From IMG/VR virus record IMGVR_UViG_2778261417_000008, positions 1 to 33,955 of that record: DNA of 33,955 nucleotides. The stretch is one strand, 5' to 3'. Under the pieces are notes generated by a model. That model made no database searches. It was not told where the DNA came from and saw only the letters and a list, made by a program, of their open reading frames with translations. The position numbers were made by a program, and so were the translations under genes. This document shows positions 6,979 to 10,644 of this stretch, piece after piece; position 1 is the stretch's first letter; each line of letters opens with the position of its first letter. This DNA comes from a virus (lineage: Duplodnaviria; Heunggongvirae; Uroviricota; Caudoviricetes).

Positions 6979-7106
6979 AAAAATCCCTTTTAGTTACCGC
7001 TGATAGCGCGGTTGTAATCATTAACGTTGCGATTCTTCCTGTTAATCCCCATCAGCATCGTTTCTGAACCGCCCCGGGTTTCCTGGAGAGTGTTTTATCT
7101 GTGAAC

Positions 7107-7579
7107 TCAGGCTGCCAGATCATCGTTTCCGATGGAAGCATAATAAGCTTTTTCTGCTTCTGCCGGAGGAGTATGGCCCAGCCTTCCCAGCAATCGTCGA
7201 TTGTTATACCAGTCCACCCACGTTAGTGTGGCCAGTTCCACTTCTGCACGGTTTTTCCAGCTCTTACGGTGTATTACCTCCGCTTTGTAAAGACCATTGA
7301 TGCTCTCAGCCATCGCGTTGTCATACGAGTCGCCTGTACTCCCTGTTGATGCCAGTAATCCGGCTTCTTTTAGTCGCTCCGTATAGGCCAGTGACACATA
7401 CTGAGAGCCTTTATCGCTGTGATGGATGGTGCCAGACGGACGACGGGCCCACAACGCCTGCTCCAGCGCATCCAGCACGAATGTCGTTTCCATAGACGAT
7501 GAGACCCGCCACCCCACGATGTATCCGGCAAACACATCAATGATAAACGCCACATAGACGAAGCCCTGCCATGTGCTGA
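7107..7579 (-). CDS. IS3-family transposase OrfB, C-terminal exon (downstream of the intron)
   Basis: Translation …[23 protein letters not shown]…[10 protein letters not shown]…[16 protein letters not shown]… is the DDE integrase core. Confidence 0.85.
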
Positions 7580-9849
7580 GTAGAGTAAGAGGCAGGGCGT
7601 AGTCGGACTATTTCCCTGCCTCTCCTCCCCGAACCGGACGTGCACCTTTCAGCGCATCCGGCTCTCCATTTAAATGCTGGCGAACGCCATTGCCACTTCT
7701 GTAAAGCGCGATGTATACGTGTTTCTGGTCTCCGTCCTCAGATAGGGATTACCTTCGGGTAGCCGCCAGCGGAACAGCTTCTTGCCTTGCCCCACCAACC
7801 GGTACAGTATTTCGCCGCTGAGCTTGCCGTGATTGGTTTTACCAAATAAAACCCACGTTTTGCTCTGACCCGGTTTCGGTGATTTACACCACCACCTCAT
7901 CAGGGAAGCGATACCTGTACGGTATTTGCGGGCCAGCCAGTGAGCCAGCTTCCAGAACACGACACGGTCGATATAACTGAAGACTTTGGCCTTAAAATCA
8001 ACGAACTGATAGAACATGGCCCAGCCTTTCAGTTTTCGGTTGAGTTGTTCAGCCATATCGACTTTGCTTTCACTGTAGTTGCCTGATAACAGTGCTGTCA
8101 GCGATGCGGCGAAGTTTCTGGCTTTCTCCTGCGGGATCGTTGAGACCACTCGCATCTCGCCATAACGACTGCGTTTGCGAATGATCCTGTGCCCCAGAAA
8201 GATAAAGCCGTCATTAACATGGGTGATTTTAGTCTTATCCATGTTCAGCCTGAGTTTCAGACTGCCTTCGAGCACACCCCGACACTCCTCCCTGATGGCT
8301 TCCGCCTGTGCTTTGGTGCCTTTGACGATGAGGACAAAATCATCGGCATAGCGGCAGTACGCCACCGCGGGTTTCCACTGCCAGTTTTCTCTGACCGCCG
8401 TACTTCGGCCCCGTTGGATACTGTTATTCCAGTACCACCGATCTTTTCTGGCTTTCCCGCTCAGGTAGCGCTCATGCAGGTATTGATCGAACTCATTCAG
8501 CATGATGTTCGATAATAGCGGCGATATAACACCGCCCTGTGGCACACCTTCACTGGCCGCCCGAAAGAGACCGACATCGATATGTCCCGCCTTGATGGTT
8601 TTCCACAGCAGAGTCATGAAACGTGCGTCACTGATCCTGCGGCGTACAGCCTTCATCAGCAGTCGATGATGTACGGTGTCGAAGTAACTGGACAGGTCGC
8701 CTTCAATCACCCTGCGTCCCCGGGTTTCACCACAGTCTGTGAGCTGTAATTTCACCGTGCGGATAGCGTGGTGGACACTGCGCTCAGGCCGGAAGCCATA
8801 TGAGAGCGTATGAAAATCACTCTCCCATATCGGCTCCATCGCCATCAGCATGGCCCGCTGAACAATACGATCCCGCAACGCGGGGATACCCAGTGGTCGC
8901 AGTTTGCCGTTGCTTTTAGGGATGTAAACCCGTCTGGCGGGCAAGGGCTGGTAGTGGCCTGAGAGTAATTCATCCCTGAGGATTTGCAGCTCAACAGCCA
9001 GTCTGGCCTGTAGCATTGTTTTGTTCACGCCATCAACGCCGGGGGTATGGGCCCCCTTTGATGAAAGCGTGATCCGCGCCGCTTCAGCCAGCCATTCTGG
9101 TTGTGTTATCAGACGCAGCAGCCGTTGAATCCGTAGGGACGGATCGGTGACTGCCCATGTGGCAAGCTTGCGTTGCATTTCGCTGATTATCAAAGGTCTT
9201 CACCTCGTTAGGTCAGTTAATTCACGTCGCAAACACATTCAAACTGCTTCCCTTCGCCATGTAATGGGCTTTCCCCATCGCGGACTACTACGGAAGCTCC
9301 GCCAGCCAGCGCGTCATCGGAGCCATGCCCCCTTAACATCCGTCGCTGACCTTCCCCGGTTTACCTGCCTGGACTCAGGCATACTGAGGAGGCTGCCCGT
9401 CGCACTCTTTATCCTTGCTTGCCGCAAGTTGGCAGAAGTCAGCAACGCAAGCGTGATAGACGCTGCTGCCCCGGTGTTTCGCATACATGTCAAAACACCT
9501 TCGACCGGCAGTGCTTACGTATCACTGCCAGTTCCTCCTGCACGGCCTGTCAGATCACGTAGGCCGTGGTGACGTTTTCAACCCACAGAGGCGGATTAAC
9601 GGGTTCATGTTCTTCAGCCTTTCAGTACTTAACCTTGAGGATCATCTCGGCTTAGTGATCTCGCCTCAATCCCCGTTGTCAGCGGGTTACATCACCCTGC
9701 GGGCATGCCGCAGGTCACTGCCGCTCAGGTTCTCCACCGTCACACCCGGTGGGATTGTTGGGTTTCTCATCGTGAGTTACCGGTTCAATATTCCAGACAG
9801 ACTCGCGGTTCATTTAAGCATCCATGCCCGCCCTGAACTCCGGGCACAC
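7580..9849 (-). mobile_element. Group II intron (2270 bp) inserted in the IS transposase orfB
   Basis: 5' end GTGTG at 9849-9845 (minus strand). Domain V consensus gagccggatgcgctgaaaggtgcacgtccggttc at 7631-7664 (minus). 3' end …tctAC at 7580. Removing it restores the frame …QLWVADFTY|[10 protein letters not shown]…. Confidence 0.85.
7670..9193 (-). CDS. Group II intron-encoded reverse transcriptase/maturase
   Basis: RT motifs (…LRPLGIPALRDRIVQ…, …YCRYADDFVLIV…) followed by a maturase X-like region; stop lies immediately upstream of domain V. Confidence 0.9.
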   Translation of the reverse strand: MIISEMQRKLATWAVTDPSLRIQRLLRLITQPEWLAEAARITLSSKGAHTPGVDGVNKTMLQARLAVELQILRDELLSGHYQPLPARRVYIPKSNGKLRPLGIPALRDRIVQRAMLMAMEPIWESDFHTLSYGFRPERSVHHAIRTVKLQLTDCGETRGRRVIEGDLSSYFDTVHHRLLMKAVRRRISDARFMTLLWKTIKAGHIDVGLFRAASEGVPQGGVISPLLSNIMLNEFDQYLHERYLSGKARKDRWYWNNSIQRGRSTAVRENWQWKPAVAYCRYADDFVLIVKGTKAQAEAIREECRGVLEGSLKLRLNMDKTKITHVNDGFIFLGHRIIRKRSRYGEMRVVSTIPQEKARNFAASLTALLSGNYSESKVDMAEQLNRKLKGWAMFYQFVDFKAKVFSYIDRVVFWKLAHWLARKYRTGIASLMRWWCKSPKPGQSKTWVLFGKTNHGKLSGEILYRLVGQGKKLFRWRLPEGNPYLRTETRNTYTSRFTEVAMAFASI

Positions 9850-10267
9850 CGTAAGTAAAATCAGCCACCCACAGCTGGTCAGGTCGTTCTGCCACGAACT
9901 GACGGTTTACGCGGTCGCCTGCGGCAACGGCTTTCCGGCTGATGGTCGTACGGACCTTTTTACCCCGGAGAACACCGGCAAGTCCCATAACCGCCATGAG
10001 ACGTGCCACAGTGCATCTGGCCACTCTGATACCTTCCCGTAACAACTGACGCCAGACTTTACGCACACCGTATACCTTGTGATTTTCATCGTATACGCGC
10101 TGTATCTCTTTCTTCAGCCAGTCATTGCGCTGCGCACGGGCACTGCGTTTATCCGGATGATGTCGCTGTTGCTGACAGTGGTAATACGTTGACGGGGCAA
10201 TATGTAGTTCACTGCATACCGGTCCGACCCCGTACAGCTTACGCAGCTTATCCAGCAGTGGCATCAC
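9850..10267 (-). CDS. IS3-family transposase OrfB, N-terminal exon (upstream of the intron)
   Basis: …QLWVADFTY is the first D of the DDE motif; the ORF-track frame then reads on into intron sequence. Confidence 0.8.
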
Positions 10268-10590
10268 TTTTTCCAGAGGCGGTCGAACTCCGCCTTCGCA
10301 AAATAAGCGGAAGCCTGGCGAAGGATATCGTTACTGCGGCGCAGTTCACGATTTTCACGTTCCAGCTCTTTCAGACGCTGACGTTCAGCGGTGGTGAGCC
10401 CTCCATCACCGCCCCCGGTATCCCGCTCATGCTGGCGAACCCAGACACGCAGAGTCTCCGGCGTACAGCCAATCTTTGGAGCAATGGAACAAATTGTCGC
10501 CCATTGTGAGTCATATTCGCTCTGACTTTCCAGAACCATACGGACTGCCCGTTGACGGACTTCGGGGGAAAAACGAGTATTTTTAGTCAT
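10264..10590 (-). CDS. IS3-family OrfA (HTH/leucine-zipper transposase subunit), IS629-like
   Basis: 108-aa translation [22 protein letters not shown]…[33 protein letters not shown] matches IS629/IS1203 OrfA from memory. Confidence 0.85.
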
Positions 10591-10644
10591 CCTGTTTACC
10601 TCTTTCTCAGGAAGTTTAGTCTCCAGGATTCCCGGGGCGGTTCA

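What the first reader, a model, noticed from the sequence alone, without database searches (positions are those of the whole stretch)
7065..10644. Nested mobile elements: a group II intron inside the transposase gene of an IS629-like element
The IS3-family orfB is split exactly at …VADFTY|VSTWQG… by a 2270-bp element that starts GTGTG, has a textbook domain V and encodes a reverse transcriptase/maturase. Precise removal restores the transposase frame, which is the expected outcome of retrohoming. Whether the intron still splices, and so whether the IS can still make transposase, is open.
Basis: partly seen in the sequence, partly recalled or inferred. Interest (0 to 1): 0.55.

Follow-up and report, generated by a model that had tools for sequence, protein, structure and literature searches.

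The report
Known intron E.c.I4 inside IS629
This is an ordinary copy of a well-known self-splicing mobile intron (E.c.I4) sitting at its usual target inside the transposase gene of an IS629 insertion sequence on a P1-like phage-plasmid, an arrangement found in about a third of complete E. coli genomes.

Summary
An IS629-type IS3-family element lies on the minus strand at 7065-10644. Its orfB is interrupted after ...VADFTY plus one base by a 2270-bp element at 9849..7580. Removing that element gives a 1310-bp IS colinear with IS629 of phage CP-1639 and a continuous 296-aa OrfB.

The insert is a group II intron. It has GUGUG...AC ends, a domain V/VI match to Rfam RF00029, an invariant bulged A, and a 502-aa reverse transcriptase/maturase with no endonuclease domain. 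Domains I-IV are supported by covariation among 45 relatives, although Rfam's own D1-D4 models do not detect them.

It differs by 3 nt from a copy the literature names E.c.I4 (bacterial class A). That intron is already described as homing into IS629, IS911 and other IS3-family transposase genes. NCBI annotation labels the same arrangement in thousands of records. The finding is therefore already known.

Two smaller points are new here:
- This copy carries a private W156R change at a nearly invariant aromatic residue of the reverse transcriptase. It is absent from all 4437 copies in complete E. coli genomes.
- The IS has no target duplication, is a hybrid, and marks a roughly 5-kb deletion.

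Whether this copy splices cannot be decided from sequence.

The parts
7065..10644 (-). Whole composite: IS629-type IS3-family insertion sequence (1310 bp of IS) carrying a 2270-bp intron
   Evidence: The exons are 97.6% identical to IS629 of phage CP-1639 (L002) with no indels. PGAP annotates the same arrangement elsewhere as 'IS3 family transposase (x2) | ltrA'.
10620..10644 (-). Left inverted repeat of the IS (IRL)
   Evidence: TGAACCGCCCCGGGAATCCTGGAGA matches IRR at 22 of 25 positions. IS629 in AJ304858 is annotated with 25-bp ends.
10264..10590 (-). orfA (108 aa, HTH_Tnp_1)
   Evidence: PF01527, E 7e-13.
10193..10309 (-). ALIL pseudoknot, the programmed -1 frameshift signal that fuses OrfA and OrfB
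   Evidence: Rfam RF01497, 116.2 bits, full length 1-117.
9850..10267 (-). orfB exon 1 (HTH_21 region). It ends 4 codons plus 1 nt after the first catalytic Asp codon of the DDE motif (VADFTY)
9857..9862 (-). Probable IBS2 (GAUUUU, exon positions -13..-8)
   Evidence: Pairs at 5 of 6 positions with intron 274-279. Family test.
9850..9855 (-). IBS1 (CUUACG, exon positions -6..-1)
   Evidence: Six of six Watson-Crick pairs with intron 331-336.
7580..9849 (-). Group II intron E.c.I4 (bacterial class A), 2270 nt, GUGUG...CUAC
   Evidence: Three nt different from the copy named E.c.I4-2b in E. coli E24377A. One nt different from a copy in O111:H11.
9355..9844 (-). Ribozyme domain I (intron 6-495)
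   Evidence: Comparative fold of 45 relatives. Closing helix 6-10/491-495, and most helices carry compensatory changes.
9571..9576 (-). Probable EBS2 (AACGUC, intron 274-279), in the loop of a conserved hairpin
   Evidence: mean 4.64 of 6 pairs with own exon, and 4.3% of shuffles reach the observed value. Compensatory cases include L034 UCAUC/GAUGA and L039 AACGUC/GAUGUU.
9514..9519 (-). EBS1 (CGUAAG, intron 331-336), in the terminal loop of a hairpin whose stem covaries in all 10 pairs
   Evidence: Own-versus-shuffled exon test: 0.5% of shuffles reach the observed value.
9301..9354 (-). Domain II (intron 496-549)
   Evidence: 10 of 11 pairs have compensatory changes.
9246..9297 (-). Domain III (intron 553-604)
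7670..9178 (-). Intron-encoded protein inside domain IV: 502-aa reverse transcriptase/maturase with no endonuclease domain (WP_123009042.1)
   Evidence: Pfam RVT_1 and GIIM only. PDB matches to LtrA, GsI-IIC RT and others at E 1e-50 to 1e-39. Exact-sequence look-up.
8711..8713 (-). Codon 156 AGG (Arg). The dominant allele has TGG (Trp). This is a private substitution just upstream of the RT block-3 catalytic Asp (GR[W>R]VIEGDL)
7631..7664 (-). Domain V (34 nt, AGC triad, GAAA loop, 2-nt bulge)
   Evidence: Rfam RF00029. Fold. Family covariation.
7582..7628 (-). Domain VI. The bulged branch-point A is at 7586, 7 nt from the 3' splice site
   Evidence: The A is invariant in 47 of 47 relatives, and 9 of 14 DVI pairs are compensatory.
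7107..7579 (-). orfB exon 2 (rest of the rve/DDE catalytic domain plus stop codon)
   Evidence: PF00665, E 1.8e-18. Identical to IS629 of CP-1639 and IS1203 of p95NR1A over this part.
7065..7089 (-). Right inverted repeat of the IS (IRR)

Best explanation
The element is a copy of the mobile group II intron E.c.I4. This is a bacterial class A intron whose intron-encoded protein has reverse-transcriptase and maturase domains but no endonuclease. It is inserted in the sense orientation at its cognate homing site in orfB of an IS629-type IS3-family insertion sequence, which itself sits in a P1-like phage-plasmid.

Shown here:
- The boundaries are exact and the exon join is exact.
- All ribozyme hallmarks are present: GUGUG 5' end, AC 3' end, domains I-VI, AGC triad and bulged A.
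- The intron ORF is intact.
- The EBS1 loop is fully complementary (6 of 6) to the last six exon bases, and a probable EBS2 pairs at 5 of 6 positions seven bases further upstream.

Inferred from established group II intron biology:
- The intron arrived as an RNA-protein particle that reverse-spliced into the DNA encoding the ...D-F-T-Y motif (the first catalytic Asp of the DDE transposase) and was copied into DNA. Because the protein lacks an endonuclease, priming probably came from a replication-fork strand, as in RmInt1.
- Unspliced IS transcripts can only give OrfA and an OrfAB/OrfB that runs 21 codons into the intron and stops, so it lacks the whole DDE domain beyond the first Asp.
- Full transposase needs maturase-assisted splicing. 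By analogy with RmInt1 in ISRm2011-2 (0.07% exon ligation in vivo) this is probably inefficient, so this IS copy is largely silenced while the intron keeps a harmless, multi-copy, horizontally mobile home.

The confidence given is for the identity and anatomy. The efficiency of splicing and the activity of this copy are much less certain.
For: Boundaries and frame restoration.

Identity with E.c.I4:
- Three of 2270 nt differ from the copy that Leclercq & Cordaux list as E.c.I4-2b (NC_009801 4848623-4850893).
- The same paper states that E.c.I4 copies insert at specific positions of IS629, IS911, ISEc16 and ISEc31 transposase genes.
- Class A with no D/En domain is stated in PMC3552965 and PMC4244168.

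Prevalence: 1874 of 5426 complete E. coli genomes hold at least 80% of the intron, and 2716 records are at least 99% identical. PGAP labels it ltrA flanked by two IS3 transposase fragments.

Ribozyme:
- RF00029 at 64.9 bits.
- DV and DVI fold with the bulged A.
- 115 of 175 DI-DIV pairs and 11 of 28 DV-DVI pairs have compensatory changes across relatives.

Protein: RVT_1 and GIIM, with LtrA, GsI-IIC and other group II RT structures as best PDB matches.

EBS/IBS pairing.

Homing-site conservation: 44 of 50 relatives with both flanks lie in D-x-T-[YFWC] followed by one base.

RmInt1 analogy: PMC3035460 and PMC4238363.
Against: - No Rfam D1-D4 covariance model matches the 5' 670 nt, so domains I-IV rest on my own comparative fold.
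- EBS2 is only weakly supported (4.3% of shuffles reach the observed value) and EBS3 could not be tested because the first 3'-exon base is almost invariant.
- Splicing, lariat formation and mobility of this copy are not shown.
- The protein carries W156R at a residue that is Trp in 38 of 38 aligned relatives and Trp or Tyr in the three solved group II RT sequences shown aligned at that residue. This could impair the RT and possibly the maturase.
- The IS is a hybrid without a target duplication. The intron may therefore have reached this locus by recombination between IS copies rather than by homing into this very copy.
Confidence: 0.95

Rival explanations
1. This particular copy is a crippled intron. 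The private W156R substitution destabilises the palm of the intron-encoded protein, so the copy can neither home nor promote its own splicing. The host IS copy would then be permanently dead unless a wild-type E.c.I4 protein from another copy in the cell acts in trans.
For: The substitution is absent from all 4437 places in 2690 records of complete E. coli genomes, and the exact protein is seen on only 3 contigs. Position 156 is Trp in the other 38 sequences of the alignment. It aligns with Trp or Tyr in LtrA, GsI-IIC RT and the 7uim RT, two residues before the strand that carries the catalytic Asp of RT block 3.
Against: It is a single substitution and its effect is untested. The ribozyme is identical to the widespread active-looking allele. 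RT-active-site mutants of other group II intron proteins are known to retain maturase activity (general knowledge, not tested here). The change could also be a sequencing error.
Confidence: 0.3
2. The intron did not home into this IS copy. An already intron-bearing IS629 variant recombined with a resident intronless IS1203/IS629 of the phage-plasmid. This produced a hybrid IS carrying the intron and deleted the DNA between them.
For: There is no target-site duplication: the flanks are ...GTTTC and CTATT.... The related plasmid p95NR1A has an intronless IS1203 in the same orientation, with 3.0 kb and 2.0 kb of extra DNA on either side that the window lacks. All 31 differences from that IS1203 lie in IS positions 1-635, and the rest is identical. 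IS positions 1-795 differ at only one base from the intron-bearing copy in E. coli 55989.
Against: One recombination explains the deletion on one side only, so a second event is needed for the other side. The hybrid pattern could also predate intron arrival. This rival changes the history, not what the element is.
Confidence: 0.35
3. The insert is some other reverse-transcriptase element (a retron, a group II-like RT or a defence RT) that merely resembles an intron, or the frame restoration is coincidental.
For: Rfam D1-D4 models give no hit.
Against: There is a full DV/DVI match, GUGUG and AC ends, a maturase (GIIM) domain, base-exact excision restoring a known IS, EBS1 complementary at 6 of 6 positions, and covariation-supported DI-DIV.
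Confidence: 0.01

Closest known systems
E.c.I4 (also S.f.I1): bacterial class A group II intron of Escherichia/Shigella
   Same: The sequence is 99.87% identical to a copy the literature lists as E.c.I4-2b. The length (2270 nt), the endonuclease-less 502-aa protein and the homing position in IS3-family orfB are the same. IS629 is one of its four described host ISs.
   Different: The only differences are a private non-synonymous change (W156R) in the protein and the genomic context: a hybrid IS on a P1-like phage-plasmid with no target duplication.
RmInt1 in ISRm2011-2 (Sinorhizobium meliloti)
   Same: It is an endonuclease-less mobile group II intron whose natural home is the transposase gene of an insertion sequence. 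Experiments show very inefficient exon ligation, and the authors propose that it limits spread of its host IS (PMC3035460, PMC4238363).
   Different: It belongs to a different intron class (class D according to my own knowledge), sits in a different IS family and recognises a different target. No splicing measurements for E.c.I4 were found in the searchable library.
Ll.LtrB / LtrA (Lactococcus lactis)
   Same: LtrA is the best solved-structure match of the protein (E 1.5e-50). It shares the RT and maturase organisation, and NCBI names the window's gene ltrA by analogy.
   Different: LtrA has C-terminal DNA-binding and endonuclease domains that are absent here. Ll.LtrB homes into a relaxase gene, not an IS.
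IS629 / IS1203 (IS3 family)
   Same: The host element is 1310 bp once the intron is removed and is 97.6% identical. It has the same inverted repeats, the same orfA/orfB layout and the ALIL frameshift pseudoknot.
   Different: It is interrupted by the intron and has no target duplication. Its first 635 nt come from a different IS629 variant than the rest.

Membership tests
Mobile group II intron | Conserved boundary sequences: 5' GUGYG and 3' AY | tested here: met
   GUGUG at 9849-9845 and ...CUAC ending at 7580. The last two bases are A then C in 47/47 and 46/47 relatives.
Mobile group II intron | Domain V: 34-nt hairpin with AGC triad, 2-nt bulge and GNRA loop | tested here: met
   RF00029 at 64.9 bits versus gathering 40. 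Fold. Covariation at 2 pairs and no broken pairs in 47 sequences.
Mobile group II intron | Domain VI with a bulged branch-point adenosine 7-8 nt from the 3' splice site | tested here: met
   The bulged A is at 7586, 7 nt from the end, and is invariant in 47/47 relatives.
Mobile group II intron | Domains I-IV recognised by a curated covariance model | tested here: not met
   No Rfam group-II-D1D4 family hit even at E<=10. I interpret this as missing coverage of class A in Rfam.
Mobile group II intron | Six-domain secondary structure supported by covariation | tested here: met
   Consensus fold of 45 non-redundant relatives gives DI 6-495, DII 496-549, DIII 553-604 and DIV from about 625. Compensatory changes occur in 115 of 175 pairs.
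Mobile group II intron | ORF in domain IV encoding reverse transcriptase plus maturase (X) domains | tested here: met
   PF00078 at E 2.6e-33 and PF08388 at E 1.3e-10. Best PDB matches are group II intron RTs.
Mobile group II intron | EBS1-IBS1 pairing between a domain I loop and the end of the 5' exon | tested here: met
   CGUAAG (intron 331-336) pairs with CUUACG (exon -6..-1) at 6 of 6 Watson-Crick positions. Across the family, own exons pair better than shuffled ones (192 versus 180 +/- 4.5; 0.5% of shuffles reach the observed value).
Mobile group II intron | EBS2-IBS2 pairing | tested here: inconclusive
   AACGUC (intron 274-279) pairs with GAUUUU (exon -13..-8) at 5 of 6 positions. In the family test 4.3% of shuffles reach the observed value, with a few clear compensatory cases.
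Mobile group II intron | EBS3-IBS3 or delta-delta' pairing with the first 3'-exon base | not tested
   The first 3'-exon base is U in nearly all relatives, so covariation cannot locate the partner.
Mobile group II intron | Self- or maturase-assisted splicing through a lariat; retrohoming | not testable with these tools
   This needs RT-PCR, branch mapping and mobility assays.
E.c.I4 / bacterial class A | Near-identity to a reference copy named E.c.I4 | tested here: met
   Three of 2270 nt differ from NC_009801 4848623-4850892, listed as E.c.I4-2b in the supplement of PMC3522654. The Zimmerly database entry itself could not be consulted.
E.c.I4 / bacterial class A | Intron-encoded protein without D/En (HNH endonuclease) domain | tested here: met
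   Only RVT_1 and GIIM are found. The literature places E.c.I4 among En-minus class A ORFs.
E.c.I4 / bacterial class A | Insertion at the conserved position of IS3-family orfB | tested here: met
   The insertion is after VADFTY plus 1 nt, the same codon position as the copy in an IS911-like element (...GDVTY plus 1 nt), and as 44 of 50 relatives.
IS629 (IS3 family) | About 1.3 kb; imperfect terminal inverted repeats ending TG...CA | tested here: met
   1310 bp after intron removal; 25-bp repeats match at 22 of 25 positions.
IS629 (IS3 family) | orfA and orfB in the 0/-1 frames with a programmed frameshift signal; DDE (rve) domain in OrfB | tested here: met
   ALIL pseudoknot at 116 bits. HTH_Tnp_1, HTH_21 and rve domains.
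IS629 (IS3 family) | Short direct target-site duplication flanking the element | tested here: not met
   The flanks are ...CATCGTTTC| and |CTATTACC..., with no repeat. The flanks are 6.3 kb apart in p95NR1A. I read this as later rearrangement, not as evidence against IS identity.

The most novel reading that the evidence does not exclude
The whole class A lineage, not only E.c.I4, may be a dedicated hyperparasite of DDE (IS3-type) transposase genes. These introns home to the DNA that encodes the first catalytic Asp motif (W..D-x-T-Y), a site no functional transposase can mutate away from. An intron-bearing IS copy could also act as more than a dead copy. Unspliced mRNA would yield an OrfAB that keeps the DNA-binding and multimerisation parts but lacks the DDE domain, and this could act as a trans-dominant inhibitor of intact IS629 copies. 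The family-wide targeting is shown here (44 of 50 loci from Gamma-, Alpha- and Deltaproteobacteria and others). The dominant-negative effect is pure inference.
Probability: 0.2. Interest if true: 0.45.

Novelty: already known. Interest (0 to 1): 0.12.

Why it matters
As an annotation result it matters little. The nesting of E.c.I4 in IS629 is published, and NCBI's pipeline labels it in thousands of genomes.

It remains a good natural example of one mobile element parasitising another at a site protected by the host element's own catalytic motif.

Three things could merit modest follow-up:
- a natural W156R allele of the intron protein at a nearly invariant residue, which could help separate RT and maturase functions;
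- the very broad taxonomic spread of class A relatives that all use the same transposase motif, whereas a 2014 paper reported that the group II intron database held only three, almost identical, members of this class;
- the lack of any Rfam model that recognises the 5' two-thirds of this abundant ribozyme.

Tried and rejected
- The Rfam 'evalue' scan of the intron gave no D1-D4 hit, so I built a comparative fold instead.
- A single-column covariation scan of every intron column against every exon position gave only phylogenetic noise and was discarded.
- The first EBS1 test used the wrong register (intron 329-334) and showed no signal. The corrected register did.
- Two early EBS2 guesses were rejected: GUGAU at intron 155-159 and at 292-296, both complementary to the common target AUCAC. 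Those loops are invariant across the family whatever the exon, so they are probably tertiary-contact motifs.
- A windowed EBS2 column scan found nothing useful. A per-sequence search then pointed to the 267-282 hairpin loop.
- The two Dai & Zimmerly 2002 papers (PMC101233, PMC1370338) are not held, and E. coli ED1a (NC_011745) is not in the genome collection. E.c.I4 identity therefore rests on the E24377A copy named in the supplement of PMC3522654.
- No paper reporting splicing or mobility measurements for E.c.I4 was found.
- I considered structure prediction to judge burial of W156. I did not run it because the tool returns no coordinates.
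Full report
**1. Observation**

All features lie on the minus strand.
- The window carries the 25-bp imperfect inverted repeats of an IS3-family element at 10644-10620 and 7089-7065.
- Downstream of the left end lie orfA (10590-10264, 108 aa, Pfam HTH_Tnp_1) and a full-length ALIL frameshift pseudoknot (10309-10193, RF01497, 116 bits).
- The start of orfB follows (from 10267, Pfam HTH_21).
- The orfB frame is broken after ...QLWVADFTY plus one base (G, 9850). It resumes at 7579 (TC AGC ACA TGG ... = VSTWQG...) and continues through an rve/DDE domain to the stop at 7107.
- The intervening 2270 bp (9849..7580) start GTGTG and end CTAC.

Aligning both junctions with the intact IS629 annotated in phage CP-1639 (AJ304858) shows ...GATTTTACTTACG|TCAGCACATGG... 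with no base gained or lost. The joined exons are 1310 bp. They have 31 substitutions and no indels relative to that IS629, and they translate to a continuous 296-aa OrfB.

**2. What the insert is**

- *Rfam.* The 3' end matches the group II intron domain V/VI family (RF00029, 64.9 bits, gathering 40, E 9e-11).
- *Domain V* (7664-7631) has the AGC triad, a GAAA loop and the 2-nt bulge.
- *Domain VI* (7628-7582) has a bulged A at 7586, 7 nt from the 3' splice site.
- *ORF.* The internal ORF (9178-7670, 502 aa) has Pfam RVT_1 (E 2.6e-33) and the group II maturase domain GIIM (E 1.3e-10) and nothing else, so there is no HNH endonuclease. Its best solved-structure relatives are group II intron proteins: LtrA, GsI-IIC RT, the 7uim RT and the 6me0 maturase/RT, at E 1e-50 to 1e-39.
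- *Domains I-IV.* Rfam's D1-D4 models do not match the 5' 670 nt even at E<=10. A scan of one genome per species returned 80 loci encoding relatives 66-100% identical in protein. I extracted their ribozyme parts and flanks. A consensus fold of 45 non-redundant 5' parts gives domain I (intron 6-495), II (496-549), III (553-604) and the base of IV (from about 625, with the ORF start at 672). Compensatory double changes occur in 115 of 175 predicted pairs.
- *Domains V-VI in the family.* Of 28 DV/DVI pairs, 11 are compensatory. The branch A is invariant in 47 of 47 sequences.

The six-domain architecture is thus supported. The Rfam miss is a coverage gap for this class.

**3. Exon recognition**

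*EBS1.* The terminal loop of a hairpin whose stem covaries in all ten pairs (intron 317-347) carries CGUAAG (331-336; window 9519-9514). This is perfectly complementary to the last six exon bases, CUUACG (9855-9850). Across 43 distinct intron/exon combinations, the loop pairs with its own exon better than with exons shuffled among relatives (192 pairs versus 180 +/- 4.5; 0.5% of shuffles reach the observed value). Clear compensatory cases include CGAAUG with CGUUCG.

*EBS2.* A probable EBS2, AACGUC (intron 274-279; window 9576-9571), lies in the loop of another conserved hairpin. It pairs at 5 of 6 positions with GAUUUU (exon -13..-8). Family support is weaker, with 4.3% of shuffles reaching the observed value.

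*EBS3.* This could not be tested because the first 3'-exon base is almost always U.

**4. Identity with a known element**

- The intron differs at 3 of 2270 positions from the copy at NC_009801 4848623-4850892. The supplement of Leclercq & Cordaux 2012 (PMC3522654) lists that copy as E.c.I4-2b.
- That paper states that E.c.I4 targets 'various IS3 elements'. [quoted passage not shown]
- Toro and co-workers place E.c.I4 and S.f.I1 in ORF class A, among the introns with no recognisable D/En region.
- In 5426 complete E. coli genomes, 1874 hold at least 80% of the intron and 2716 records are at least 99% identical, with up to 20 copies per genome. RefSeq labels the arrangement 'ltrA: group II intron reverse transcriptase/maturase' between two 'IS3 family transposase' fragments.

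The finding is therefore correct but already known.

**5. How it works**

Steps shown here: the anatomy above.

Steps inferred from established group II intron biology:
- The spliced lariat and its protein form a particle that recognises the target through EBS1/EBS2 pairing and reverse-splices into the DNA.
- Lacking an endonuclease, the intron probably uses a replication-fork strand as primer, as shown for RmInt1 (abstracts listed).
- The target is the DNA encoding W-x-x-D-x-T-Y, which contains the first catalytic Asp of the DDE transposase. Of 50 relatives with both flanks, 44 sit at exactly this position in transposase genes of Gamma-, Alpha- and Deltaproteobacteria and other phyla. This explains the broad IS host range.
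- E.c.I4 itself pairs 6 of 6 with IS629 at EBS1 but only 4 of 6 with the IS911-like site that it also occupies.

For the host IS, an unspliced transcript can give OrfA and a product that reads 21 codons into the intron and stops (ORF 10267-9785), so it has no DDE domain. Full transposase requires splicing.

The only measured analogue I could find is RmInt1 in ISRm2011-2. It ligates exons at 0.07% in vivo, and its authors propose that it restrains its host IS (PMC3035460, PMC4238363). I found no splicing data for E.c.I4.

**6. Is this copy still active?**

The ribozyme is identical to a copy in E. coli O111:H11. The single difference from that copy is T>A at intron position 1137 (window 8713), which changes Trp156 to Arg in the protein.
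- A 61-nt probe centred on this base finds 4437 places in 2690 records of complete E. coli genomes, and none has the window's base.
- The exact protein (WP_123009042.1) is on record for 3 contigs only.
- Residue 156 is Trp in the other 38 sequences of a 39-member alignment spanning 68-91% identity.
- It aligns with Trp or Tyr in LtrA, GsI-IIC RT and the 7uim RT, just before the strand bearing the catalytic Asp of RT block 3.

This private change may weaken the RT and possibly the fold. Its effect on maturase function is unknown, and it could be a sequencing error. Everything else needed for splicing is intact. I put about 0.3 on this copy being functionally impaired in cis.

**7. Context and history**

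The window is a P1-like phage-plasmid.
- The 20 kb to the right match phages vB_EcoM-673R5, phi456, SJ46 and RCS47, with Cre, PacA/B and PmgS.
- The left side carries ParA, a RepB-family initiator and iterons shared with about 97-kb non-mobilizable plasmids.
- Rfam finds the C4 antisense RNA and isrK at 27399-27589.

The IS has no target duplication. In the related plasmid p95NR1A the two flanks are 6.3 kb apart. An intronless IS1203 lies between them in the same orientation, so the window lacks 3.0 kb on one side of the IS and 2.0 kb on the other.

The IS is also a hybrid. All 31 differences from that IS1203, and from CP-1639 IS629, fall in IS positions 1-635, and the rest is identical. The first 795 nt differ at one base from the intron-bearing copy of E. 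coli 55989.

A recombination between an incoming intron-bearing IS629 and a resident IS1203, plus one adjacent deletion, would explain this. Homing into an already rearranged IS would explain it too. This affects the history, not the identity.

**8. Verdict**

- Observation: confirmed.
- Interpretation: supported.
- Novelty: already known (E.c.I4 in IS629).
- Interest: low.

Three by-products might deserve a note: the private W156R allele, the family-wide use of the D-x-T-Y site by a now very large class A, and the missing Rfam coverage of its domains I-IV.

Noticed in passing
window 8711-8713 (minus strand; intron position 1137): There is a private T>A change making Trp156>Arg in the intron-encoded protein. 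It is absent from all 4437 copies in complete E. coli genomes and hits a residue that is Trp in 38 of 38 aligned relatives. It could be a real inactivating mutation or a sequencing error.
   Followed up: partly
window 7060-7070 and 10640-10650; compare L006 (p95NR1A) 1865-8181: The IS has no target-site duplication and sits where the related plasmid p95NR1A has 6.3 kb containing an intronless IS1203 in the same orientation. The window lacks 3.0 kb and 2.0 kb on the two sides of the IS.
   Followed up: partly
window 10010-10644 versus 7065-10009 (IS positions 1-635 versus 636-1310): The IS is a hybrid. All 31 differences from O157-type IS629/IS1203 lie in the first 635 nt, and that part is almost identical to the intron-bearing IS of E. 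coli 55989 (1 difference in 795 nt). The remainder is identical to IS1203.
   Followed up: partly
loci L007-L086: Relatives of this intron (protein 66-100% identical) occur in many Gamma-, Alpha- and Deltaproteobacteria and other phyla. Of 50 with both flanks, 44 are inserted at the same codon position of DDE transposase genes, after D-x-T-[YFWC] plus 1 nt. A 2014 paper reported only three, almost identical, class A members in the group II intron database.
   Followed up: partly
window 9180-9849 (intron domains I-IV): No Rfam group II D1-D4 covariance model recognises the 5' two-thirds of this very abundant ribozyme, even at E<=10. A class A model could be built from the alignment made here.
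   Followed up: no
window 9690-9700 and 9553-9560 (intron 150-164 and 290-301): Two intron loops, GGUGAUGUAAC and UACGUGAUCUGAC, are almost invariant across the family irrespective of exon sequence. They are probably tertiary-contact motifs and not exon-binding sites.
   Followed up: no
window 10616-11002 (minus strand): The 128-aa ORF next to the IS left end takes its last 9 codons and its stop from the IS. In p95NR1A the homologous gene is 125 aa, and its last 20 nt are missing in the window.
   Followed up: no
window 27399-27589 (plus strand): isrK-like RNA (60.8 bits) lies directly upstream of a C4 antisense RNA (75.9 bits). This is the immunity/antirepressor control region typical of P1-like phages.
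   Followed up: no
window about 6330-6480 and about 5100-5360: Arrays of repeats of the type (T/C)A(T/C)AGTCAAC flank the RepB-family initiator gene (5367-6287). They are presumably the iterons of the plasmid-prophage replicon (seen in the sequence printed).
   Followed up: no
window 10267: The stand-alone orfB start codon is GTG here versus ATG in reference IS629 (IS position 378). This is probably irrelevant because transposase is made as an OrfAB frameshift fusion.
   Followed up: no
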